Shown: positions 9,793 to 40,385 of the stretch, one piece after another
How positions within the stretch are numbered: position 1 is the stretch's first letter
Layout: each line of letters starts with the position of its first letter
Origin: Thermoanaerobaculia bacterium
Lineage (GTDB): Bacteria; Acidobacteriota; Thermoanaerobaculia; UBA5066; Gp7-AA6
Assembly (NCBI GenBank): GCA_033853815.1
Contig: JAWOLE010000257.1
Span: forward strand, 1-42,765
Direction of reading: 5' to 3'
DNA length: 42,765 bases
Notes under the pieces: generated by a model
What the model saw: only the letters and a program-made list of their open reading frames with translations
Database searches by the model: none
What the model was told of the DNA's origin: nothing
Translations under genes and position numbers: made by a program

Positions 9793-9888
9793 AATCGGAT
9801 CATTGACTCATTGAATCATTGGTTGATTGCGGCTTATCAAATGGGGCAATGAGTCAATGGATCAATGGACCAATGGGTCAATGGGTCA
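9793..9888. repeat. inverted tandem octamer array (3x CATTGNNT, spacer, 6x ATGRNTCA)
   Basis: Left arm 9801-9824, right arm 9841-9888. Reverse complement of the left arm matches the right arm exactly over 13 nt (CAATGAGTCAATG). The TGA stop of the TPR gene (9886-9888) is the end of the last unit. Confidence 0.9.
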
Positions 9889-12294
9889 ATTCTTGTGCGC
9901 TGCCTCGAGTTCCTTGACCCGCTCGGCGACGTCGCGGTACTTGGTGTCGAGACCGTAGACCTCGACGAAGGTCCTGTAGGCGTTCTCCGCGTCCCCGGTG
10001 GATTGGTAGACGCAGGCCAGGTCGTAGAGAAGGCCGACGGTCTCCGCCTCCTTGATGCCGGGAGTCTCGAGCCCCTTGCGGTACCACTTGACGGCGAGCT
10101 GGGGCATCCCCTTCTCCAGGAAACAGAGACCCAGCATGCTGCAGCATTCGACGGCGCGTTGCGGGTCCTTGCTCGCGAGCTGGAATTCCCCGATCGCCTC
10201 GTCGATCAGTCCCATCTCCTTGTAGGCGATGCCGAGATTCGAGTGCGTCTCGTAATCCTCGGCCGAGAGCTGCTGCTCGACCCCCTTCTTGAACTCGCGG
10301 AAGATCTCCTCGAGCGAGACTTCCCCTTCCGGTCCGGACATCTCGGGGGCCTCCGACGCCGCGGGAGAGTCGGCCAGCTCCTTTTCCATTTCATCCGCCA
10401 GATTGAAGAACCGCTGCTCGTCGGCGAAGAGGCTCTGGCCGTCCACCGCGGGCGCGGCTTCGATGGGAGCGGCCGACTTCCCGCCCGCCTTGCGCATCTC
10501 CTCGTCGATCAAGGATTCCAGGCCTTCGGAGGAGATGAGCTCGGAGTCCGCATCCTCGAGCCGGGGGGGAGGGGCCGCGGGGGCGAGGCCCCGGGCACCC
10601 CTGCCGGCCGGCGGAGCGAACACGAGCGGCGGCGGGCTTTCTCGCGGAGGCGGGATCGGCTCGGCTCCGAAATCGTCGAAGAATTCCGCGGAGGCCGCCG
10701 GGCGCGGCTCGACCGGAAATTCCTCGTACGCCTCGGCCGGGGGGGGCGGCGGCGCGGGCGGCGCGACGGACACTCCCAGCCTGGAAAGAACAGCCTCGGC
10801 CTTCTGCGGTTCGCCGCGTCGGCGATAGAAATCGGCGAAGGCCTCCGCTTCCTGGGCGAGCGCCGGATTGCTCGACGCCGCCATCAGCTCGAGCAGGCGC
10901 TCGCGGGCCGGGAAGAAATCGGGGTGATTGCGCGCGACCGTGCGAAGCCTCTCGACGGCTTTGTCGGTCAGGCCGTACCGGGAAAAGATCTCCGCCTCGA
11001 CGATGAGGGTTTCGAGCTCCCTCTGCTCGGGAACGGCCTGGGAGGGCGGGCCGCCCGCGGCCGGAGCCGCAGCGGGCGGAGCCCCGGCGGGACCCTCCTC
11101 GACATCGACGACGACCTCCTCCTCGGCCCCCGCCATGCCGGCGGTTCGCAGGAGCTCGGACAGGCGCGCCGCCGCCTCGGAGTCTCCGGGGGCGGCCGCC
11201 GCGGCGCGCCGATAGTTCTCGACGGCGGAGGCCAGGTCTCCCCTGCGCTCATCTTCGCGCGCCAGCGCCATGCGAAGCCGCGCCGCCTCGGCCGCGTTGC
11301 CCTCGGCCTCCCGGACCTCGGCCATCTTCTGAAGGGAATCCCGGTGCGCTTCTTCAATCTGCAGGATCATCGACAGGTAGCCGGCGGCCCGCGTGAAGTC
11401 CCCCGCGGCCGTCGCCGCGTCCACCAGCGGCGAAACGTCGGCGAGCGCGGCCTCGAAGTTCGCCTCCGCCAGATGGGCGCGGCACAGAGCCAGGCGGGCT
11501 CCCGTGTGCGCGTCGTCCAGAGCGACCGCCTGCTCGGCGCTCCGCACGGCCTCGGCCTTCTGTCCCAGCTCGATCTGCGCCTCGGCCATGAGCACCAGGC
11601 TGTCGGCCGTGCGCGGCGCCGCCTTCAGGATCGCCAGGGCCGCCGCCGGGTTCTTCTGGGACAGCAGCGAACGCACCAGCGTGTTGCGGGCCGCGGCATC
11701 CTGCGGGGACAGCTCGAGCGCCTTCTGGAAGACCGCCGCGGCTTCGTCCTCGGCGCCGCGCCGCAGGAGCATCGAGCCGACAAGGCCGTACTGCATGACC
11801 GCGTTGTCGAGCTGGTTGACGCTGCGATAGAGATCGGCGAGGCGGACCTGGATCTTCAGGTCGTTGGCGTCTACCGACACCATCTTCTTGTAGACCGCGA
11901 TGGCCTCTTCCGGCATGGTGTTCTTCTGGTAGTGGTCCGCCAGGACCTGATACTGCGTGCGGGCGTCCTGGACGAGCCCCTGCTTGGCGTACAGGTCGCC
12001 CAGCCGCTCATAGACCTCCAGACGCGCGGGGTCGATCTTGTTGATCTTCTTGTAGATCGCGATCGCTTTCAGGAAGAAACCGTCGACGGTGCAGACCTCC
12101 GCGATCCGCGTGAAGAAGGGGATCGAGTCCGGGGCGCGGTTGACGCGGACGTAGAGGTCGCCCACCTTGTTCAGGGTCGAGATGTCTCTCGGGTTCTCGT
12201 CGAGCACCCGCAGGTAGTCCTTCAGGGCATCGTCGAACCTGCCCCTGGCGATGTGCTTTTCGGCGGAGCGAAGCAGTTGGTCGCGCGTTGGCAC
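9886..12294 (-). CDS. large TPR-repeat protein with central Pro/Ala-rich linker
   Basis: About 802 aa from GTG 12294 (VPTRDQLLRSAEKHIARGRFDDALKDYLRVL). TPR-like helices occur at both ends and a low-complexity segment (PPAPPPPPAEAYEEFPVEPRP) in the middle. ORF sequence upstream of 12294 overlaps rnhB in another frame and is not credible. Confidence 0.75.
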   Translation of the reverse strand: MPTRDQLLRSAEKHIARGRFDDALKDYLRVLDENPRDISTLNKVGDLYVRVNRAPDSIPFFTRIAEVCTVDGFFLKAIAIYKKINKIDPARLEVYERLGDLYAKQGLVQDARTQYQVLADHYQKNTMPEEAIAVYKKMVSVDANDLKIQVRLADLYRSVNQLDNAVMQYGLVGSMLLRRGAEDEAAAVFQKALELSPQDAAARNTLVRSLLSQKNPAAALAILKAAPRTADSLVLMAEAQIELGQKAEAVRSAEQAVALDDAHTGARLALCRAHLAEANFEAALADVSPLVDAATAAGDFTRAAGYLSMILQIEEAHRDSLQKMAEVREAEGNAAEAARLRMALAREDERRGDLASAVENYRRAAAAAPGDSEAAARLSELLRTAGMAGAEEEVVVDVEEGPAGAPPAAAPAAGGPPSQAVPEQRELETLIVEAEIFSRYGLTDKAVERLRTVARNHPDFFPARERLLELMAASSNPALAQEAEAFADFYRRRGEPQKAEAVLSRLGVSVAPPAPPPPPAEAYEEFPVEPRPAASAEFFDDFGAEPIPPPRESPPPLVFAPPAGRGARGLAPAAPPPRLEDADSELISSEGLESLIDEEMRKAGGKSAAPIEAAPAVDGQSLFADEQRFFNLADEMEKELADSPAASEAPEMSGPEGEVSLEEIFREFKKGVEQQLSAEDYETHSNLGIAYKEMGLIDEAIGEFQLASKDPQRAVECCSMLGLCFLEKGMPQLAVKWYRKGLETPGIKEAETVGLLYDLACVYQSTGDAENAYRTFVEVYGLDTKYRDVAERVKELEAAHKN

Positions 12295-13667: not shown

Positions 13668-13766
13668 GGCGATTTCTCCTCGACCCGAAGCCAAACCCGA
13701 CAGGCCAGGGGCTTCAGGATTGGACGGAAGCCGCGGAGTATAGCCGAGGAGAGGGGAATAAACCAA

Positions 13767-13929
13767 GGTGTCAGGTTTCGAGGTTTGAGGTTTCAGGTTC
13801 GAGGTGTCAGATGAAACGCAGGTGTCAGGTTTCAGGTGTCAGGTGCCAGGGCAGCTACGCTTTATCGCTCTCGTCCCTGAAACCTGACACCTGGCACCTG
13901 CATTTCCCTGAAACCTCTGCCCTGACACC
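13767..13929. repeat. inverted tandem heptamer array (10x GGTKTCA, 29-nt spacer, 7x TGAMACC)
   Basis: Left arm 13767-13848 with one 11-nt interruption. Right arm 13878-13929 abuts the trmD TAA (13930-13932) with no gap. Confidence 0.9.
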
Positions 13930-14655: not shown

Positions 14656-15291
14656 CTATAGCTCCATCAACCCTTCGGGAGGATCGAGGACGATCCGCCT
14701 CGAGGCGCGGTCGACCGCCACCACGATCGGGCGGACGAAGGGAACGAGCACTTCCCTGCCGCCGGGAGTCCCGAGCGTAAGCTGGCCCCCGGCGGCGGTC
14801 TGCTCGAGCCGCTTCACGGTCCCGAGAGGTTGGCCTGAAAGATCCTCGCACGACCAGCCTTCCAGTTCATGGCTCCAGTAGAAATCCTCGGGCCTCCGCG
14901 GAAGGCGGTCTGCGGGGAGACAGAGGACCCCGCCGGAAAGTCGATCGGCCTCTTCGCGATCCTCGATCCCCTCGAAGGAAAGAAGAAGACGTTTGCCGTG
15001 GGGACGCTTTGACGAAAGGGTCAGTTCGCGGACCCTCGCGCCCGCAATCCAGAGAAGTGTTGCCCCGGGTTCGAAAGGATCCGGAGAGTCCCCCAGGCGT
15101 TCAACGGAAAGCTCGCCTGCGACACCGTGAGGGCGCCACACAAAGCCGACGGCCAGAGGGCGGGACGGCAGTTCTTCTGGTTTAGTCGTACTCAGGTACC
15201 GGGAGCAACCCGGCTGCAAAGCGGCAATCTGCGATTTGTGAAGTGTGATTTGTGAATTGGGCGCGCAGGATCGTCTCGGCCCGGTCCGCAA
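14656..15291 (-). CDS. rimM: 16S rRNA processing protein RimM (start uncertain)
   Basis: LAVGFVWRPHGVAGELSVERLGD... PRC-barrel C-terminus. Position is conserved. In-frame starts are TTG 15291 and TTG 15219. The first ~30 codons of the maximal ORF run through the heptamer array and are probably not coding. Confidence 0.8.
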   Translation of the reverse strand: MRTGPRRSCAPNSQITLHKSQIAALQPGCSRYLSTTKPEELPSRPLAVGFVWRPHGVAGELSVERLGDSPDPFEPGATLLWIAGARVRELTLSSKRPHGKRLLLSFEGIEDREEADRLSGGVLCLPADRLPRRPEDFYWSHELEGWSCEDLSGQPLGTVKRLEQTAAGGQLTLGTPGGREVLVPFVRPIVVAVDRASRRIVLDPPEGLMEL

Positions 15292-15324
15292 TCACCAATC
15301 GCAGATCGCAGATCGCAGATCTCT
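15228..15324. repeat. inverted tandem heptamer array (4x TYTGYGA, spacer, 5x RATCRCA)
   Basis: Left arm 15228-15255 (tctgcga tttgtga agtgtga tttgtga). Right arm 15290-15324 (aatcacc aatcgca gatcgca gatcgca gatctct). It ends 1 nt from the TGA of the KH gene. Confidence 0.85.
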
Positions 15325-17770: not shown

Positions 17771-17779
17771 CGGCGACTT

Positions 17780-17948
17780 TCGGCCGCCCCCGTTCGCTTC
17801 GCGAAGGCGGCCGAGAGTTTCAAGACCGGAGTTCTCCGCTGTGTCGTACTCGCCGTCGCGACCTTCGGCCGCAGGCGTTCGCTTCGCGAACGGCGGCCGA
17901 GAGTTTCAAAACCGGAGCTCTCCTCTGTGTCGTACTCGTCGCCGCGCT
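17780..17948 (+). repeat. tandem duplication of an ~85-bp REP-like unit (copies R3, R4)
   Basis: Units at 17780-17863 and 17865-17948. Each has a TCGGCCGC..CGTTCGC-TTC-GCGAA(C)G-GCGGCCGA hairpin plus the tail GAGAGTTTCAARACCGGAGYTCTCCKCTGTGTCGTACTCG. Confidence 0.85.
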
Positions 17949-24253: not shown

Positions 24254-25348
24254 ATGGTCCTTGAGCGCGTGCCCGACGCTCTTCCCACCGGGCGCCCGGA
24301 CCCCCTGCTGGCGGCCGCGGTCCTTCGGGAAGAGGCCCGCCGGGAAGCCTTCTCCAGGGTCGGATTCGCTCGGGCCGAGCGCCCACTGCGGTTCGAGCGG
24401 TTCGAGAGCTGGATCCAAGCCGGGCGCCACGCCGGGATGAAGTACCTGGAGGAAACGCGGGAGGTTCGCTCTTCGCCCGAGCGTCTCCTCGAAGGTGCGC
24501 GGTCCGTCGTCTGCCTCGCCGCGCGCCACGGCACCCGTCCGGTCGTCGCCGCCGACGGGGGGAAGCTCGCGCGCTACGCCGCCGGCGCCGATTACCACGG
24601 CACCCTTCGTCAGCGCGCCCTGCGAGTCGCCCGCGCGGCCGCCGGGAGGCTCGGCGTCTTCCGCTATCGCGTCTGCGTGGACTCGACTCCCGTGGCCGAA
24701 CGGTCGCTGGCCGCGGCGGCGGGACTGGGCTGGGTCGGCAAGAACGGCTGCCTGATCGACACGGAGCACGGCTCGTACCTTCTCCTGGCGGAGATCCTGA
24801 CGGACCTCGATCTGCCCCCCGATGAGTCCGTGGCGGAGCGCTGCGGCTCTTGCGTCCGCTGCCTCGAGGCCTGCCCGACCGGGGCCTTCCTCGAGCCGGG
24901 CCTCCTCGACGCGGCGCGCTGCCTCGCCTACTGGACGATCGAGCATCGCGGACCGCTTCCCGACACGGTCAAGGAGAAGGTGGGCGAACGGATCTTCGGG
25001 TGCGACGTCTGCCAGGAAGTCTGTCCCTGGAATCCTCCGCTCGGGACGCGAGCGGAGGATCCGGAGCCGGCGGCCACTCCTCCCACCCGCCGCGAATGGC
25101 TCGAAATCGGCCCGGGCGCCTGGCGCCGCCGCTGGGGCTCGACCGCCCTCAACCGCCCGGGGCGCCGCGGCATGCAGAGAAACGCCGCCGCTTCCGCCGG
25201 CGCGTCCGCGGACTCCGCTTGCCTGCCGGCGCTCGATCGGGCGGCCCGGGTCTCGGAGGCCGGCCTGGCCGACGCCGCCGCCTGGGCGCTCTCCCGCTTG
25301 CGCGGCCGCTCTACTCCTCCGGCCAAAGAAAGGAACTCAGGACCATGA
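24254..25348 (+). CDS. queG: epoxyqueuosine reductase
   Basis: GWVGKNGCLID, two 4Fe-4S motifs (CGSCVRCLEACP, CDVCQEVCPWN), WTIEHRGPLP. Confidence 0.9.
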   Translation: MVLERVPDALPTGRPDPLLAAAVLREEARREAFSRVGFARAERPLRFERFESWIQAGRHAGMKYLEETREVRSSPERLLEGARSVVCLAARHGTRPVVAADGGKLARYAAGADYHGTLRQRALRVARAAAGRLGVFRYRVCVDSTPVAERSLAAAAGLGWVGKNGCLIDTEHGSYLLLAEILTDLDLPPDESVAERCGSCVRCLEACPTGAFLEPGLLDAARCLAYWTIEHRGPLPDTVKEKVGERIFGCDVCQEVCPWNPPLGTRAEDPEPAATPPTRREWLEIGPGAWRRRWGSTALNRPGRRGMQRNAAASAGASADSACLPALDRAARVSEAGLADAAAWALSRLRGRSTPPAKERNSGP

Positions 25349-26607
25349 ACCTGCAGATCGCGATCTACGCCGCCCTCTTCCTGCTTTCGCTCGGGCTCTC
25401 GGCGTTCTTCGCAGGGGCGGAGACGGCGCTCGTCTCTCTGGGGCGGATCGATCTGCAGCGCCTGCGCGAGGGGGGGGACCGGCGCGGCGCGATCATTCGG
25501 GATCTGAAGTCCAACCGCAACCGGCTGCTCGCCACGATCCTGATCGGCCAGAATCTCTTCGTCAGCTCCGCCTCCGCGCTCGCGACCGTCCTGGCGACCG
25601 GGTGGCTCGGCGACAATTCCGGCGTGCCGGCGGCGATCGTCTTCTCGACCCTGACGCTCTTCGTCTTCGCCGAGATGACGCCCAAGGCCGTCGGCGCGGC
25701 CTCGCCGGTCGCCATCTCCCGCGCGGTGGCGATCCCGCTCTCCTGGATGATGACGCTGCTCGGCCCCGTCGCGGCGCTGTGCGTGAGGCTGACGACCCGG
25801 GCGCTGCGGTTCCTCCGGATCCCCGAGAAGACGCCGGCCCTGACCGAAGAAGAGATGAAGAGCGTCATCAACCTCGGGGCCGACGAAGGCGTCATCCACG
25901 GCGAGGAACGCAAGCTCCTCCACAAGGTCCTGGAGTTCGGCGACAAGACGGCCCGGGACATCATGACGCCGCGCACGCGCGTGATCGCGCTGCCCGAGAC
26001 GGCGAAGTTCTCCGACGTGCGCCTCGTGCTCACCGAGCACAAGCTGTCGCGCCTCCCCATCTACCGCGGGTCGCTCGACAACATCGTCGGGATCCTCCAC
26101 GCCAAGGACCTCTTCGCCCTGACCGACGAGCAGGAGAAGGACTTCCGGCTCGACCAGTACGTGGACCAGCCCTTCCTGGTCCCCGAGTTCAAGCCCGCCG
26201 AGGAGGTCTTCCGGGAGATGCGCCGGCGCCGGACCCACATGGCCATCGTCGTGGACGAGTTCGGCGGGACGGCCGGCATCGTCACGATCGAGGACGCGAT
26301 CGAGGAGATGCTCGGGGCGATCCAGGACGAGTTCGACGAGGAGGAGACGCCCGGGTTCGTCGCGGCGGGCGAGCGCGCCTTCCTGCTCGAAGGGGGCTTC
26401 CGCCTGGACGATCTCGAGGAACAGTTCGGCATCGCCCTGCCGCGGGAAGAGGCCGAGACGATCGCGGGACACCTCATGCTGCGCTTCGGCCGGATCCCGC
26501 GCAAAGGCGAGCGCTGGAAGGGGCGCAAGGCCGACTTCGTCATCGAGGAGGCCACTTCGACCGCCGTCAAGACGGTGCGGATGATCCTCCCCCCGGAGAA
26601 AAATTGA
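25345..26607 (+). CDS. hemolysin/CNNM family protein (DUF21 - CBS pair - CorC_HlyC)
   Basis: MNLQIAIYAALFLLSLGLSAFFAGAETALVS (DUF21), CBS pair (DIMTPRTRV..), C-terminal transporter-associated domain. ATGA overlap with the queG stop. Confidence 0.9.
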   Translation: MNLQIAIYAALFLLSLGLSAFFAGAETALVSLGRIDLQRLREGGDRRGAIIRDLKSNRNRLLATILIGQNLFVSSASALATVLATGWLGDNSGVPAAIVFSTLTLFVFAEMTPKAVGAASPVAISRAVAIPLSWMMTLLGPVAALCVRLTTRALRFLRIPEKTPALTEEEMKSVINLGADEGVIHGEERKLLHKVLEFGDKTARDIMTPRTRVIALPETAKFSDVRLVLTEHKLSRLPIYRGSLDNIVGILHAKDLFALTDEQEKDFRLDQYVDQPFLVPEFKPAEEVFREMRRRRTHMAIVVDEFGGTAGIVTIEDAIEEMLGAIQDEFDEEETPGFVAAGERAFLLEGGFRLDDLEEQFGIALPREEAETIAGHLMLRFGRIPRKGERWKGRKADFVIEEATSTAVKTVRMILPPEKN

Positions 26608-26742
26608 TCCATTGATCCATTGATCCATTGACCCATCGATTCATTGACCCCTAGACGCGACGCGATGAACCAATGATTCAATGAGTCAATGAGTCAATCC
26701 TCTCTGGATCAATGATTCAATGAATCCATGAGTCAATCCCCT
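26603..26742. repeat. inverted tandem octamer array (6x ATTGAYCC, 13-nt spacer, 4+4x AATGANTC)
   Basis: Left arm 26603-26650 starts inside the last codon plus TGA of the upstream gene (AAT TGA). Right arm 26664-26742 contains the ATG of the downstream gene (cATGAGTCaat). Same octamer family as 9793-9888. Confidence 0.9.
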
Positions 26743-27747
26743 CGGACAGTGACCCTCATCAAGGGGGACGGGATCGGGCCGGAGGTGTCCGACGCCGTCC
26801 TCTCCATCCTCGACGCGGCCGGAGCCCCTCTGCGGTTCGAGGAGGTCGTCGTCGGGCTGCTGGCCGAGCGCGCGGAAGGAGACCTGCTTCCGCCTCGGGC
26901 GCTCGATTCCATCCGAAAGAACGGCGTGGCGCTCAAGGGCCCGGTCGAGACTCCGGTCGGCAAGGGGTTCGCCTCGATCAACGTGCGCCTGCGCAAGACT
27001 CTCGACCTGTACGCCAACCTGCGGCCCGTCAAGAACCTGCCGTCCGTCGCCAGCCGCTTCCAGGACGTGGACCTGGTGGTCGTGCGCGAGAACACGGAGG
27101 ACCTCTACAGCGGCCTCGAGCACACCGTCGTGCCCGGAGTCGTCGAATCCCTGAAGATCATCACGGAGATGGCCTCGACGCGGATCGCGCGCTTCGCCTT
27201 CGACTACGCCCGTCGGCGCGGAAGGAAGCGCGTCACCGCGATCCACAAGGCCAACATCATGAAGCTCTCCGACGGGCTCTTCCTCGAGTGCTTCCGGCGA
27301 GTCGCCCGCGAGTACTCCGACATCGCCGCCGACGACCGAATCGTGGACGCGGCCTGCATGCGCCTCGTCATGAGCCCCGGGGACTTCGACGTGATGCTCA
27401 TGGAGAACCTCTATGGCGACATCCTGTCGGACCTCGCGGCAGGCCTCGTCGGCGGCCTCGGCCTCGTTCCCGGCGCGAACATCGGCCAGTCGGCCGCCGT
27501 GTTCGAGGCCGTTCACGGCACCGCGCCGGACATCGCGGGACAGAACCGCGCCAATCCGACGGCCCTCCTGCTCTCCGCGGTCCTGATGCTGCGGCACCTC
27601 GAGCTCTTCCAGCATGCGGACCGCGTGGAGCAAGCGCTCGACGCGACCCTGGCGGCCGGGATCCGCACGGCCGACCTCGGAGGAGCCGCGGGAACGAAGG
27701 AGTTCGCCGGGGCGGTCGCCCAGCGAGTGCGAGATTCCAGGTTCTAG
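26728..27747 (+). CDS. isocitrate/isopropylmalate dehydrogenase family, NAD-IDH-like
   Basis: 339 aa. LIKGDGIGPEV, VRENTEDLYSG, NLYGDILSDLAAGLVGGLGLVPGANIG, HGTAPDIAGQNRANP. Confidence 0.88.
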   Translation: MSQSPRTVTLIKGDGIGPEVSDAVLSILDAAGAPLRFEEVVVGLLAERAEGDLLPPRALDSIRKNGVALKGPVETPVGKGFASINVRLRKTLDLYANLRPVKNLPSVASRFQDVDLVVVRENTEDLYSGLEHTVVPGVVESLKIITEMASTRIARFAFDYARRRGRKRVTAIHKANIMKLSDGLFLECFRRVAREYSDIAADDRIVDAACMRLVMSPGDFDVMLMENLYGDILSDLAAGLVGGLGLVPGANIGQSAAVFEAVHGTAPDIAGQNRANPTALLLSAVLMLRHLELFQHADRVEQALDATLAAGIRTADLGGAAGTKEFAGAVAQRVRDSRF

Positions 27748-27807
27748 GTGCGAAGTTCGAAGGACAGGGGTGTTCAACCTTGAACCTGGAACTTCGAACC
27801 TCGCACC
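27733..27807. repeat. inverted tandem heptamer array (4x GRTKCNA, spacer, 5x TNGMACY)
   Basis: Left arm 27733-27760 contains the IDH TAG (27745-27747). Right arm 27773-27807 contains the candidate trmB TTG (27780). 27747-27760 pairs with 27794-27807 at 13/14 positions. Confidence 0.8.
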
Positions 27808-28382
27808 CGGCAAGAGACGAAACCCTCTGGCACGAGGAGATTTTCGATCCGAGGGAGTTCTTCGGTCGCGAGGCGCCACTCGAGATCGAGATCGGCAGCG
27901 GGAAGGCCCGCTTCCTGATCGCGGCGGCGGCCTCCAATCCCGCTCACGATTTCCTGGGCCTCGAGCGATCCCTTTCCTATTACCGGATCTGCCGGGACCG
28001 AATCGCCCGTTCGGGTCTTCCCAACGCCGGCGTCCTTCGGGCCGACGGGCGGCTCTTCGCGCGCGCTCTTCGCCCGGGCTCGGTCCGCGCCTTCCACGTC
28101 TACTTTCCCGATCCCTGGCCCAAGAGGAAACAGAAGAAGCGCCGGCTCCTCGACTCCGTGACGCTCGAGCTCCTGGCCTCGCGGCTCGAGCCCGGGGGGA
28201 CGCTACGAATCGCGACGGATCATCCCGACTACGGGCGCGCGATCGGGCCATCGCTCGCGACCGTCGGGTCCCTCCAGAGGCTGGACTGGAGCGCGTTACC
28301 CGCGCCGCCCCCGACCAACTACGAGATCAAGTACACCTCCCAGGGCCGTCCGATCTGGCGTTTCCTCTGCGTGAAACGTTAA
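27780..28382 (+). CDS. trmB: tRNA (guanine46-N7)-methyltransferase
   Basis: EIEIGSGKARFL, FPDPWPKRKQKKRRL, TDHPDY. No ATG in frame. TTG at 27780 is the most 5' start downstream of the IDH stop. Confidence 0.85.
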   Translation: MNLELRTSHPARDETLWHEEIFDPREFFGREAPLEIEIGSGKARFLIAAAASNPAHDFLGLERSLSYYRICRDRIARSGLPNAGVLRADGRLFARALRPGSVRAFHVYFPDPWPKRKQKKRRLLDSVTLELLASRLEPGGTLRIATDHPDYGRAIGPSLATVGSLQRLDWSALPAPPPTNYEIKYTSQGRPIWRFLCVKR

Positions 28383-28457
28383 ACGTCAAACGTTAAACGT
28401 AGCTCGGACGGCCACGATTTACGTTTTACCTTTTACGTTTTACGGCTTCGGCTTCGG
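28374..28457. repeat. inverted tandem heptamer array (4x AAACGTN, 16-nt spacer, 4x TTTACSK) plus 2x CTTCGG
   Basis: Left arm 28374-28401 includes the last two codons and TAA of trmB. Right arm is 28418-28445. It lies between the convergent trmB and pgsA stops. Confidence 0.9.
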
Positions 28458-36307: not shown

Positions 36308-36349
36308 CGTCTGCCGTCTCCCGTCTACCGTCTACCGTCTACCGGGTCT
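36308..36349. repeat. direct tandem heptamer array (6x CGTCTNC)
   Basis: cgtctgc cgtctcc cgtctac cgtctac cgtctac cgggtct abuts the pilT TGA (36350-36352). There is only a short partial inverted partner (CGGGACGG at 36294-36301). Confidence 0.85.
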
Positions 36350-37577: not shown

Positions 37578-37664
37578 AGTCCTTGGTCCTTGGTCCTTAG
37601 TCCTGAGTCCAAGCTCGTATGAGATCCGACCAAGGACTAAGGACTAAGGACTAAGGACTTTTCC
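37578..37664. repeat. inverted tandem heptamer array (5x RGTCCTK, 17-nt spacer, 5x CYAAGGA)
   Basis: Left arm 37578-37612, right arm 37630-37664. About 26 of 30 positions pair. The right arm runs into the ilvE TAG (37664-37666). Confidence 0.92.
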
Positions 37665-38602: not shown

Positions 38603-38676
38603 GCGACCTCCGCGTTGGTGGGAAGCGATCGCGGGTCCGAGCGAGTATCCCCTGAGGGGAAAGCGGTGTCAATCGG

Positions 38677-38782
38677 CAACGTCAGCCGTGAAACGTCAAA
38701 CGTAAACCGTTAAACGAAGCCTCCTCACCTCTGCACCTCCGTTTTTCGTTTTACGTTTTACGTTTTACGTTTTACGTTTTGC
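38677..38782. repeat. inverted tandem heptamer array (6x AAACGTN incl. 2 degenerate, 22-nt spacer, 6x GTTTTNC)
   Basis: Left arm 38677-38718, right arm 38741-38782. The rsmE TAA (38772-38774) and its last three codons lie inside the right arm. Same heptamer family as 28374-28445. Confidence 0.9.
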
Positions 38783-40291: not shown

Positions 40292-40342
40292 CAGTTCGTG
40301 AGGCTCGAGGCATGAGGCGTCAGGCGACACACGGACCCTGCC

Positions 40343-40377
40343 TTACGGCTCACGTTTACGGCTTACGCCTTACGGCT
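40343..40377. repeat. direct tandem ~7-nt array (5x TTACGSC-like)
   Basis: ttacggc tcacgtt tacggct tacgcct tacggct ends 8 nt before the dnaJ TGA (40386-40388). No inverted arm is evident. Confidence 0.7.
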
Positions 40378-40385
40378 CCCGTGCC

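What the first reader, a model, noticed from the sequence alone, without database searches (positions are those of the whole stretch)
26603..26742. One repeat element donates both the stop of one gene and the start codon of the next
The left arm (ATTGAYCC x6) begins in the final AAT TGA of the CNNM/CBS gene. The right arm (AATGANTC x8 in two blocks) ends with cATGAGTCaatcc, which is the ATG AGT CAA TCC (MSQS) start of the isocitrate dehydrogenase family gene. The initiation codon would be sequestered in the hairpin arm. The repeated ATGA/ATGG also creates spurious ORF heads on both strands (MDQWINGS..., MNHWFIAS...).
Basis: seen in the sequence. Interest (0 to 1): 0.65.

Follow-up and report, generated by a model that had tools for sequence, protein, structure and literature searches.

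The report
Repeat hairpin bridging stop and start
The 130-base spacer between a CNNM/CorC-type gene and the isocitrate dehydrogenase gene is one copy of an abundant hairpin element of soil Acidobacteriota, built from 8-base tandem repeats, that begins on the first gene's stop codon and carries the second gene's start codon in its last repeat.

Summary
A left array (ATTGAYCC, 26603-26650) and a two-block right array (AATGANTC, 26664-26737) form a significant hairpin. The CNNM stop TGA (26605-07) lies in the first unit and the IDH ATG (26728-30) in the last.

Comparative data support the start. The Arg-Thr-Val codons after the leader vary synonymously in orthologues. Many orthologues begin M-[S/N/I/T]-Q-S, which is ATG-ANT-CAA-TC, the terminal unit. 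In two orthologous loci that ATG is the only canonical in-frame start.

The ATG is predicted to pair mostly with downstream coding sequence, not with the left arm.

The main result is context. This is one of about 10 inverted arrays of 7-8 nt tandem units in the window (7 strict pairs; 0 in 50 shuffles). I also found 53 such pairs in about 1 Mb of related, mostly Acidobacteriota DNA. They start within about 14 nt of the upstream stop codon and follow gene direction. The unit turns over fast: four element types or none occupy this same spacer among orthologues with at least 92% identical IDH.

The likely role is a stop-anchored mRNA hairpin that makes IDH initiation depend on unfolding. That function is inferred, not shown.

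The parts
25345..26607 (+). CNNM/CorC-family gene (420 aa). Its ATG overlaps the queG stop (ATGA). It ends ..PPEKN* with AAT TGA.
   Evidence: Pfam CNNM, CBS and CorC_HlyC; the CorC_HlyC domain is complete to residue 414 of 420. NCBIfam. Start context.
26605..26607 (+). CNNM stop codon TGA inside the first repeat unit (ATTGATCC).
   Evidence: The same AAT TGA arrangement occurs in orthologues L201, L205 and L209 and in sibling element E1.
26603..26650 (+). Left (5') arm: six 8-nt units ATTGAYCC, one of them degenerate (ATCGATTC).
26651..26663 (+). Loop CTAGACGCGACGC. It resembles the loop ATCAGACGCGACGC of orthologue L201.
26664..26704 (+). Right-arm block 1 (GATGAACC AATGATTC AATGAGTC AATGAGTC AATCCTCTC). 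It holds the ancestral start context ATGAGTCAATCCTCTC, which is now a decoy mini-ORF 26689-26715 (MSQSSLDQ*).
   Evidence: L201 starts ATG AGT CAA TCC TCT CGA. The block is absent from the run X2 contig.
26705..26743 (+). Right-arm block 2, the second copy of a 39-nt in-frame tandem duplication (87% identical to 26666-26704). It ends in the unit CATGAGTC + AATCC that carries the IDH start.
   Evidence: family D1..
26728..26730 (+). IDH start codon ATG in the last unit. It overlaps the TGA (26729-31) of the preceding mini-ORF (ATGA). No Shine-Dalgarno motif lies upstream.
26728..27747 (+). NAD-type isocitrate dehydrogenase gene, 339 aa, MSQSPRTVTLIKGDGIGPE...
   Evidence: TIGR00175, 445 bits against a cutoff of 432. 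Homologues.
26749..26751 (+). It is unlikely to be the start.
   Evidence: The R-T-V codons vary synonymously among orthologues. V is GTC or GTA in L205, L207 and L001.
9799..9890 (-). Sibling element E1 of the same 8-nt family. The upstream TPR gene ends ..HKN* with AAT TGA in the first unit. The downstream ABC-ATPase ATG lies 16 nt after the array.
13766..13900 (-). Class member E2 (7-nt units AGGTGTC/AGGTTTC and CCTGACA) between trmD and rplS. It starts directly after the trmD TAA.
15236..15321 (-). Class member E3 (ATCTGCG / TTCACAA units), 7 nt after the KH-protein stop, inside the rpsP-KH-(rimM?)-trmD-rplS cluster; the ORF between KH and trmD was not confirmed by Pfam (one search failed).
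27748..27808 (+). Class member E5. The hairpin starts at the base after the IDH stop TAG. The GAACCTN units of the right arm reach the trmB start region.
28370..28444 (+). Class member E6 (AAACGTT / ACGTTTT) between convergent trmB and pgsA-like genes. The trmB stop TAA lies inside the array.
36308..36344 (-). Direct GGTAGAC array (E7), about 9 nt after the pilT-like stop. No clear inverted partner.
37578..37659 (-). Class member E8 (AGTCCTT / AAGGACT), 4 nt after the ilvE-like stop. RNA fold -57 kcal/mol, z = -10.7.
38678..38780 (-). Class member E9 (AAAACGT / ACGTTTN). The rsmE stop TAA lies inside the array. A conserved sigma70-like promoter follows at 38672-38644.
40340..40382 (-). Weak direct array (GCCGTAAG-like, E10) about 12 nt after the dnaJ stop.

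Best explanation
The finding is one copy of a dispersed, gene-polar family of intergenic hairpin elements in a soil Thermoanaerobaculia (Acidobacteriota) genome. Each arm of the hairpin is a tandem array of an 8-nt unit: ATTGAYCC on the 5' side and AATGANTC on the 3' side. The family belongs to a wider class with 7-9-nt units of many sequences. [quoted passage not shown] INFERRED: the element acts in the queG-CNNM-IDH-trmB polycistronic mRNA as a long hairpin. Its base is inside the footprint of a ribosome terminating on CNNM, and it masks the SD-less initiation region of IDH. IDH translation would then depend on unfolding by, or re-initiation of, ribosomes finishing CNNM (the RNA-unfolding or termination-reinitiation form of translational coupling). 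The 8-nt period places a TGA in every unit of both arms, giving stops in all three frames, and closes every internal ATG after three codons, so only the last ATG can open a gene. This makes the element tolerable inside operons.
For: Repeat and hairpin statistics. START CODON: the conserved core of 120 homologues starts at RTVTLIKGDGIG; leaders M[S/N/I/T]QS, which equal ATG ANT CAA TC with all four values of N, occur in P0001, 2, 27, 32, 37, 39, 47, 52, 57, 62 and 71. In L205 and L206 the unit ATG is the only canonical in-frame start before GDGIG. Arg/Thr codons vary synonymously: CGG/CGA/CGC/AGG and ACA/ACG/ACC. Relatives with a different element (L001, L203, L208) or without one (L002) have an SD motif plus a TTG/GTG start instead. 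Unrelated genes next to sibling copies also start at the unit ATG: MNQS in L175 and L127, and MLRIDIV (trmD-like N-terminus, read from the sequence) in L192. FAMILY AND CLASS: sibling E1 carries the same AAT TGA stop. Depth is about 10-fold higher over the left array in soil metagenomes. A metagenome pattern scan returned 120 loci, about 30 with the inverted partner, some sharing the loop core GCCGCAAT[GC]AAC. There are 53 inverted array pairs in about 1.02 Mb of related loci and 0 in 50 shuffles of the window. STOP ANCHORING: curated stop-side gaps of -13 to +14 nt in 24 of 24 cases. POLARITY: E4 on the + strand and E1 on the - strand of the same window both have the ATTGAYCC arm first in gene direction, and the sense-strand right arm keeps ATGA in all units counted in the window: E4 8/8 and E1 3/3. 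TURNOVER: at CNNM>IDH the states ATTGAYCC, ATCGGGTG, GATTGANN or no hairpin occur among orthologues with at least 92% identical IDH. L205 and L206 differ by one 8-nt unit with identical IDH. The window differs from the X2 contig by the 39-nt block. STRUCTURE KEPT ACROSS UNIT REPLACEMENT: ilvE>pilT is -61 (window) versus -58.5 kcal/mol (L208) with conserved flanks. Masking of the initiation region. No promoter or terminator consensus lies between the genes. The operon is tight, with an ATGA overlap between queG and CNNM. Mechanistic precedent for unfolding coupling, and for repeats that insert at start codons with ATGA overlaps (MIRU): PMC12548453. Stop-proximal REP hairpins affect translation: PMC12306157.
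Against: No expression data exist for this locus. The only RNA runs are assembled contigs, which show arrays of the family in transcripts but do not cover this junction. The sense (mRNA) strand folds less well than the antisense strand in 20 of 28 elements, including this one (-43.8 versus -57.7 kcal/mol); simple selection for an mRNA hairpin does not predict this. In reporter screens cited in PMC12548453, structure immediately after the upstream stop lowered coupling. Several class members (E2, E8, E9) are followed by a spacer, and in E9 by a conserved promoter, so the class as a whole looks more like 3'-end hairpins than coupling devices; the stop-to-start bridging seen here may be a tolerated extreme rather than the selected function. 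Co-transcription of CNNM and IDH is inferred from synteny and spacing only.
Confidence: 0.6

Rival explanations
1. The element is a selfish or mutationally generated hairpin with no function of its own. It would be either a MITE/REPIN-like mobile element or the product of slippage plus template switching. Under this view, the overlap with the stop and the start is simply the furthest the arrays can spread before purifying selection on the two proteins stops them.
For: Turnover is rapid. The same spacer holds four different unit types or nothing among orthologues with at least 92% identical IDH. Unit-number and 39-nt indel polymorphisms occur. The same unit families occur at non-orthologous sites. 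In the IDH>trmB spacer the unit resembles the native trmB start TTGGAACC, which suggests local seeding. Empty sites function with spacers of about 15-24 nt at CNNM>IDH (L002, L204) and 3 nt at IDH>trmB (L204, L209).
Against: Orientation follows gene direction on both strands of one window, and the left end is always at the stop codon. A purely DNA-level parasite or a replication-slippage product would not be expected to respect either. The hairpin is retained when the unit is replaced. No target-site duplication was seen at the filled versus empty sites. No transposase or RAYT was found among 38 window proteins scanned.
Confidence: 0.3
2. The element acts only as a REP-like 3'-end hairpin for the CNNM transcript, serving as a terminator without a U-tract, an exonuclease block or a ribosome-stalling site. 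IDH would be expressed independently, from a promoter within the AT-rich array, possibly as a leaderless mRNA.
For: All class members abut the upstream stop codon, as many REP elements do. E9 is followed by a promoter conserved in L208. The right arm contains TGATTCAAT, an extended -10-like motif, ending 7 nt before the ATG (read).
Against: No sigma70-like promoter or intrinsic-terminator consensus was found in 26300-27000. TTCAAT lacks the critical A at position 2 of the -10 hexamer. No T-run follows the stem. The right arm overlaps the IDH start, so the hairpin cannot be purely a 3' feature of CNNM.
Confidence: 0.15
3. Translation of IDH starts at GTG 26749 (M-TLIKGDG) or at a non-canonical codon. 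The ATG in the repeat would then be coincidental.
For: GTG 26749 is in frame. One database entry for a 95% identical orthologue is annotated as MTLIKGDGIG (P0004). Neither candidate start has an SD motif.
Against: Residues R-T-V before it are conserved with synonymous codon changes in all orthologues. The valine codon is GTC or GTA in L205, L207 and L001, and L205/L206 have no alternative start at all. The P0004 locus itself has an upstream in-frame ATG giving MRAEIRTV. The start would lie only 2 residues before the first beta-strand.
Confidence: 0.07
4. The paired arrays are DNA binding sites for a multimeric protein. This is the 'global regulator / IHF-HU site' idea proposed for similar paired tandem repeats in Geobacter metallireducens.
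For: The architecture matches those Geobacter sites: pairs on opposite strands of 3-5 tandem 7-9-nt units, in many copies, some inside operons (PMC2700814).
Against: At least seven unrelated unit sequences occur within 42 kb, and the unit is replaced at orthologous sites while the structure is kept. This would need many specific proteins. Polarity follows the direction of translation, and the stop/start codon logic of the units points to the RNA level.
Confidence: 0.05

Closest known systems
Paired tandem-repeat 'global regulator sites' (Gmet_I classes 1-3) annotated in Geobacter metallireducens GS-15 (Aklujkar et al. 2009, PMC2700814)
   Same: Both are two arrays on opposite strands, each of 3-5 tandem 7-, 8- or 9-nt units (GTTGCTYN, TCTCCGTS[Y], MTYCTGA). 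The spacer is variable. There are tens of copies per genome, several unit families in one genome, and some copies lie between genes of one operon such as proB-proA.
   Different: The phylum and the unit sequences differ. The Geobacter sites were interpreted as protein-binding DNA sites and never tested. No relation to stop or start codons, no polarity and no turnover was reported.
REP / BIME / REPIN elements of Proteobacteria
   Same: Both are abundant extragenic imperfect palindromes in spacers of co-directional or convergent genes. They are often within 15 nt of the upstream stop codon, where they affect translation of that gene, and they are species-specific in sequence (PMC12306157; general features from my own knowledge).
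   Different: The arms here are tandem arrays of a 7-9-nt unit, 35-50 nt long. There is no GTAG/CGTC head. No RAYT gene is seen in the window. Here the element reaches into the downstream start codon.
MIRU (mycobacterial interspersed repetitive units)
   Same: Both are repeats inside operons whose small ORFs overlap the neighbouring gene's start by ATGA (-4), so that insertion disturbs translation little (PMC12548453). Here the right arm is an unbroken chain of ATGA-overlapping 3- to 8-codon mini-ORFs that ends on the IDH ATG.
   Different: MIRUs are direct repeats of 40-100 bp and not hairpins. The units here are 8 nt and the arrays are inverted.
RNA-unfolding translational coupling (phage f1 VII/IX, MS2 coat/lysis, E. 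coli rpmI-rplT)
   Same: In both, a hairpin masks the downstream initiation region and is opened by ribosomes on the upstream ORF (PMC12548453).
   Different: Those structures are unique sequences. Here the structure is supplied by a repeated, replaceable element and spans about 120 nt from stop to start. The function is untested.
Heptamer direct repeats of cyanobacteria (STRR) and Beggiatoaceae (TAACTGA)
   Same: Both are intergenic tandem 7-nt units, often ending just upstream of a start codon, in many copies (PMC4679880).
   Different: Those are direct arrays of one preferred heptamer with essentially no inverted partner (1 of 170 sets in the Beggiatoaceae genome). They do not form stop-anchored hairpins.

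Membership tests
REP/REPIN (RAYT-mobilised) | High-copy extragenic imperfect palindrome | tested here: met
   About 10 elements in 42.8 kb. Depth is about 10-fold higher over the unit array in metagenomes. Significant folds.
REP/REPIN (RAYT-mobilised) | Conserved GTAG or CGTC tetranucleotide at the head of each REP | tested here: not met
   The element ends read ATTGA...TCAAT. No GTAG/CGTC is present at either end.
REP/REPIN (RAYT-mobilised) | A RAYT (Y1 transposase) gene in the genome, flanked by the repeats | not testable with these tools
   Only 42.8 kb of the genome is available. None of the 38 proteins scanned is a transposase.
MITE | Terminal inverted repeats with a target-site duplication, compared against an empty site | tested here: not met
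   Filled sites (window, L201, L203) were compared with sites lacking a hairpin (L002, L204). No direct duplication flanks the element. L204 looks like a collapsed remnant, so the comparison is imperfect.
MIRU-like operon repeats | An internal ORF overlapping the downstream start by ATGA | tested here: met
   The mini-ORF 26720-26731 (MNP*) ends in a TGA that overlaps the ATG at 26728. A chain of six such ORFs runs from 26665.
MIRU-like operon repeats | Direct tandem units of about 40-100 bp | tested here: not met
   The units are 8 nt and arranged as inverted arrays.
Intrinsic (Rho-independent) terminator | A G+C-rich stem followed by a T-run | tested here: not met
   No terminator-like site in 26300-27000. 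The element has 46% G+C in a 68% genome.
Geobacter-type paired tandem-repeat sites | Two arrays of 3-5 tandem 7-9-nt units on opposite strands, multicopy, intergenic | tested here: met
   compared with the description in PMC2700814. Shared ancestry was not tested.
Any Rfam family | A score at or above the family's gathering threshold | tested here: not met
   No hits in the window at gathering. Only generic long-hairpin (miRNA-precursor) matches of 30 bits or less, against thresholds of 90 or more.
NAD-dependent isocitrate dehydrogenase (flanking gene) | TIGR00175 equivalog score above its cutoff | tested here: met
   445.3 bits against a cutoff of 432.4.

The most novel reading that the evidence does not exclude
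Acidobacteriota may carry a phylum-wide, self-renewing class of stop-codon-anchored tandem-repeat hairpins that act as translation-gated intercistronic switches. A ribosome terminating on the upstream gene would open the 5' arm and so expose the start codon carried by the 3' arm. In the 8-nt family the units (TTGA in the left arm, ATGA in the right arm) form a relay of overlapping start/stop mini-ORFs. That relay could hand ribosomes from the upstream stop to an SD-less downstream start across about 120 nt. Such an element would be a portable 'coupling cassette' that can replace a gene's native ribosome-binding site and N-terminus.
Probability: 0.15. Interest if true: 0.85.

Novelty: new variant of a known kind. 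Interest (0 to 1): 0.62.

Why it matters
If the reading holds, intergenic 'junk' repeats in a major soil phylum would be a structured, oriented layer of operon punctuation. They would set where translation stops and restarts, and they can rewrite a housekeeping enzyme's start codon, ribosome-binding site and first residues. The same M-x-Q-S leader appears on IDH orthologues and on unrelated proteins.

There are two practical consequences:
- Gene callers disagree on starts next to these arrays (MTLIK, LIKGDG and MGLPIEAM... calls for the same gene). Annotation of Acidobacteriota MAGs could be improved by modelling the elements.
- The arrays break short-read assemblies and vary by whole units between strains, so they are natural strain markers.

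The series of orthologous spacers with four element types or none offers a ready-made natural experiment on how such hairpins arise, spread and are replaced.

Tried and rejected
- **Rfam.** Nothing at gathering threshold in the window or in four related loci. Only sub-threshold generic hairpin matches appeared.
- **Promoter and terminator scans.** Nothing was found between CNNM and IDH. I considered a leaderless-mRNA promoter (TGATTCAAT ending 7 nt before the ATG) and set it aside, because the hexamer lacks the A at position 2 and the scan finds no site.
- **Selection for an mRNA hairpin through G-U pairs on the sense strand.** The opposite trend was found. The antisense strand is more stable in 20 of 28 elements, p about 0.04, and the samples are not independent.
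- **Target-site duplications** at filled versus empty sites. None was seen.
- **Read-level RNA evidence.** Only one metatranscriptome holds the locus, and only as assembled contigs. No 5'/3' ends or junction coverage could be obtained.
- **Automatic census of distances to flanking genes** using the longest flanking ORF. It is unreliable in these high-GC genomes because of shadow ORFs, so only curated cases are used.
- **First regex census of the 8-mer family.** It double-counted both strands, because the unit core ATTGA/TCAAT is self-complementary. It was redone.
- **Literature searches** for a named description of inverted tandem-heptamer hairpins in Acidobacteria. None was found. The nearest description is the Geobacter annotation.
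- **Exact-protein look-up of the window's IDH.** Not on record.
- **Pfam scan of the presumed rimM ORF.** It failed on frame and was not repeated.
Full report
**1. What is in the sequence**

The 42.8-kb window has 68% G+C. The stretch 26590-26760 has 46%.

From 26603 the + strand reads as follows:
- six 8-nt units: ATTGATCC x3, ATTGACCC, ATCGATTC, ATTGACCC;
- a 13-nt loop, CTAGACGCGACGC;
- a first right-hand block: GATGAACC AATGATTC AATGAGTC AATGAGTC AATCCTCT;
- CTGGATC;
- a second block: AATGATTC AATGAATC CATGAGTC AATCC.

TRF reports both arrays with period 8. The two motifs are about five- to sevenfold over-represented in the window, and none of 100 shuffles reaches the observed counts. The arms are 73-90% complementary in several registers. 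As RNA, the region folds at -52.2 kcal/mol, z = -4.2.

The upstream gene is a complete CNNM/CBS/CorC_HlyC protein (25345-26607). It ends AAT TGA with the TGA inside the first unit. The downstream gene is an NAD-type isocitrate dehydrogenase (TIGR00175 above cutoff). Its ORF opens at ATG 26728 in the last unit, 12 nt after an in-frame TGA. The unit counts of x6 and x8 include degenerate copies.

**2. Is the ATG in the repeat the real start?**

GTG 26749 (Val8) is in frame. The comparative evidence nevertheless favours the ATG.

- Among the 120 best homologues (79-100% identity) the conserved protein begins at R-T-V-T-L-I-K-G-D-G-I-G and the leader before it varies.
- One recurrent leader is M-[S/N/I/T]-Q-S. 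This is ATG-ANT-CAA-TC, the terminal unit AATGANTC followed by AATC. All four values of the variable base N are seen.
- In the orthologous loci L205 and L206 this ATG is the only canonical in-frame start between the upstream stop and GDGIG.
- The Arg and Thr codons after the leader differ synonymously among orthologues (CGG/CGA/CGC/AGG; ACA/ACG/ACC). The Val codon is GTC or GTA in several of them, so it cannot be a general start.
- Relatives that carry a different element at this site (L001, L203, L208) or none (L002) have a Shine-Dalgarno motif and a TTG or GTG start, giving METRTV, MNERTV or MQTV. The window has no such motif before 26728.
- Unrelated genes next to sibling copies in metagenome contigs also open at the terminal unit ATG. 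Examples are MNQSSIPVTVLTGFLGAGKTT in L175, MNQSFP... in L127 and MLRIDIVTIFPGYF (trmD-like by its N-terminal sequence; not scanned against a family library) in L192.

I therefore regard the repeat-encoded start as well supported, though it is not shown by protein or ribosome data.

**3. The stop codon**

The CNNM proteins of lineages with the ATTGA-type element end ..EKN* (AAT TGA: window, L201, L205) or the equivalent ..VKN* (L209). L207, which has the same element type, ends ..EKKE* with the TGA in a GAATGATTC unit. Lineages with other element types or none end ..EKKE*..EKK*..EKIG*..DKEK* or have a longer tail.

The last residue and the stop thus change with the element, which fits 'donation'. 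The CorC_HlyC domain is untouched. The sibling element E1 (9799-9890, minus strand) again places AAT TGA of its upstream gene in the first unit. So does a copy downstream of IDH in L001.

**4. A dynamic locus**

The two right-hand blocks are a 39-nt, in-frame tandem duplication (26666-26704 and 26705-26743, 87% identical).

The first copy carries ATGAGTCAATCCTCTC. This is the start context of the 94% identical orthologue L201 (MSQSSRTV). In the window it is now a decoy mini-ORF, MSQSSLDQ*.

Contigs from two soil metagenomes show both forms. Run X1 has the duplicated form with a slightly different loop. Run X2 has a single-block form.

L205 and L206 encode the identical IDH but differ by exactly one 8-nt unit.

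Among orthologues with at least 92% identical IDH, the same spacer holds one of the following:
- an ATTGAYCC hairpin (window, L201);
- an ATCGGGTG hairpin with its TGA stop in the first unit (L203; also L208 and L001);
- a GATTGANN hairpin (L210);
- about 24 nt that look like a collapsed remnant (L204).

**5. The element is one of a class**

TRF plus a pairing script finds 7 strict inverted pairs of period-7/8 arrays in the window, against 0 in 50 block-shuffles. With weaker members there are about 10 elements.

They lie in the following spacers:
- within the rpsP-KH-(rimM?)-trmD-rplS cluster: one after the KH-protein gene and one between trmD and rplS;
- TPR and ABC-ATPase genes;
- CNNM-IDH-trmB;
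- trmB and pgsA (convergent);
- dnaJ-prmA, rsmE-ilvE, ilvE-pilT and pilT-alaS.

Units differ: AGGTGTC, ATCTGCG, AAACGTT, AGTCCTT, GGTAGAC and others.

In about 1.02 Mb of related loci, mostly Acidobacteriota of several classes, there are 53 such pairs: 39 of period 7, 12 of period 8 and 2 of period 9. Some unit families recur at non-orthologous sites. I noted none in the few loci labelled as other phyla, but this was not systematically tallied.

A heptamer hairpin ends at or just before the IDH start in Pyrinomonadaceae, Blastocatellia and Acidobacteriaceae loci as well. In L006 the ATG lies inside the last unit.

The 8-mer family itself is multicopy:
- depth is about tenfold higher over the left array in metagenomes;
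- a pattern scan returned 120 metagenome loci, about 30 of which have the inverted partner;
- some copies share the loop core GCCGCAAT[GC]AAC with E1.

**6. Rules that emerge**

(a) *Stop anchoring.* In every curated case the 5' arm starts on or within 14 nt after the upstream stop codon. This holds for window E1-E10 with Pfam-supported genes and for six relatives with called genes. The 24 gaps run from -13 to +14. The distance to the downstream start ranges from -35 to about +100 nt.

(b) *Polarity.* The + strand copy (E4) and the - strand copy (E1) both place the ATTGAYCC arm first in the direction of the genes. Other copies with identifiable neighbours do the same. Because polarity flips with gene strand inside one 42-kb window, it follows transcription or translation rather than replication.

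(c) *Structure outlives sequence.* In the syntenic complete genome L208 (86% IDH identity) the ilvE>pilT spacer has nearly identical flanks (the stop side identical). Its hairpin has a different unit (GGTGGTA rather than AGTCCTT) but like size and stability, -58.5 versus -61 kcal/mol. The CNNM>IDH and rsmE>ilvE spacers behave the same way.

(d) *Codon logic of the 8-mer.* Every unit of both arms carries TGA on the sense strand. With a period of 8 this gives stops in all three frames within three units. Every internal ATG is closed after three codons (ATG ANT CAA TGA), so only the last ATG can open a gene.

The right arm is therefore an unbroken chain of ATGA-overlapping mini-ORFs from 26665 to the IDH ATG. 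The left arm is a similar TTGA chain starting on the CNNM stop.

The sense right arm keeps ATGA at the cost of an A-C mismatch against the left arm's CC. This is one reason the antisense strand folds better.

**7. How it most likely works (inferred)**

queG overlaps CNNM by ATGA. CNNM, IDH and trmB follow on the same strand with conserved synteny, and no promoter or terminator consensus lies between CNNM and IDH. I therefore take the element to be transcribed within a polycistronic mRNA.

The base of the hairpin lies within the reach of a ribosome terminating at 26605-07. In the predicted ensemble the 20 nt before the ATG are about two-thirds paired. The ATG itself is 73-94% paired, mainly with 26757-59 in the coding region and not with the left arm. 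In the single-block variant the ATG-containing unit lies within the span of the predicted main stem; pairing of the ATG itself was not mapped.

With no Shine-Dalgarno motif, the simplest working model is the RNA-unfolding or termination-reinitiation form of translational coupling reviewed in PMC12548453.

For the class as a whole, the constant position right after stop codons recalls REP elements. REPs within 15 nt of a stop codon stall ribosomes and tune the upstream gene (PMC12306157). Members followed by a spacer and a conserved promoter, such as E9, look like 3'-end hairpins.

None of this is tested. The only RNA evidence is that metatranscriptome contigs contain arrays of the family attached to coding sequence.

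**8. Comparison with known systems**

- The nearest described architecture is the set of 'paired sites' of 3-5 tandem 7-9-nt repeats on opposite strands annotated in Geobacter metallireducens. These were proposed, without test, to bind IHF/HU-like regulators (PMC2700814).
- In function and location the class resembles REP/REPIN. It fails that family's sequence hallmark (no GTAG/CGTC head), and no RAYT is visible.
- It shares with MIRUs the ATGA overlap of internal mini-ORFs with the downstream start, but it is neither a direct repeat nor of that unit size.
- It is not an intrinsic terminator.
- It is not in Rfam.
- Direct heptamer arrays of cyanobacteria and Beggiatoaceae lack the inverted partner.
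- Four literature searches found no description of this class in Acidobacteria. The library does not cover all journals.

**9. Verdict**

One claim is wrong, the sequestration claim is only partly right, and the wider context was missed.

I rate it a new variant of a known kind, namely intergenic palindromic repeat elements. It has three unusual features: tandem-unit arms, strict stop-codon anchoring with gene polarity, and capture of a housekeeping gene's start codon and N-terminus.

What generates the tandem-unit arms remains unexplained. So does how the two arms stay complementary while the unit is replaced (notebook, 'unexplained').

Noticed in passing
window 17773-17946: There is an 86-nt tandem duplication (2 copies, 88% identical). 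It lies in a stretch without a Pfam-recognisable gene, between ffh and a glycosyltransferase gene. Only sub-threshold Rfam matches were found.
   Followed up: partly
window 25345-25348: The queG stop and the CNNM start overlap as ATGA. queG-CNNM-IDH-trmB therefore looks like one tight operon, and the same overlap is called in relatives.
   Followed up: partly
window 27748-27808; L208:11003-11095; L201:4009-4092; L205:4009-4110: In the IDH>trmB spacer the hairpin starts right after the IDH stop, and its right arm runs into the 5' coding region of trmB, so heptamer units are translated. 'Empty' relatives (L204, L209) have a 3-nt spacer and the native start (T/A)TGGAACC. That start resembles the repeat unit, which suggests the unit was seeded from local sequence.
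   Followed up: partly
window 38644-38672 (minus strand): A sigma70-like promoter (TTGACA-17-GATACT, 10 of 12) lies immediately after element E9 and upstream of the ilvE-like gene. Both hexamers are conserved in L208 although the neighbouring hairpin has a different unit.
   Followed up: partly
28 elements in the window and related loci: The strand antisense to the flanking genes folds better than the mRNA strand in 20 of 28 elements, and by 9-14 kcal/mol in five window elements. The sense strand is A+C-rich. This is unexplained.
   Followed up: partly
L083, L089, L108, L122, L155, L168, L183, L188, L199 (peat and soil metagenome contigs): A subfamily of ATTGA-type hairpins with loop AAAAACGAGGCAAGGGCCCTTC is always followed by a conserved sequence of about 60 nt: GTCCTGGGCTAGRCATGTGGACA...TCTCTTGACAACGCC...GTGGTAGCC. 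There is no Rfam match. It could be a composite repeat or a promoter module.
   Followed up: partly
L205:2927-3000 vs L206:197-262: Two contigs encode the identical IDH protein but differ by exactly one 8-nt unit in the right arm. This is direct evidence of unit slippage between strains.
   Followed up: yes
P0004, P0006, P0023, P0082, P0086, P0107 (database IDH entries): Gene callers disagree on the IDH start next to these arrays, giving MTLIK.., LIKGDG.. and MGLPIEAM... The P0004 locus has an upstream in-frame ATG giving MRAEIRTV.
   Followed up: partly
window 13766-13900: Element E2 between trmD and rplS has two successive left arrays (AGGTTTC-type and AGGTGTC-type) facing one right array. 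A -35/-10-like pair (TTGGTT..TATACT) abuts its 3' end. This pair was read by eye and not scored.
   Followed up: no
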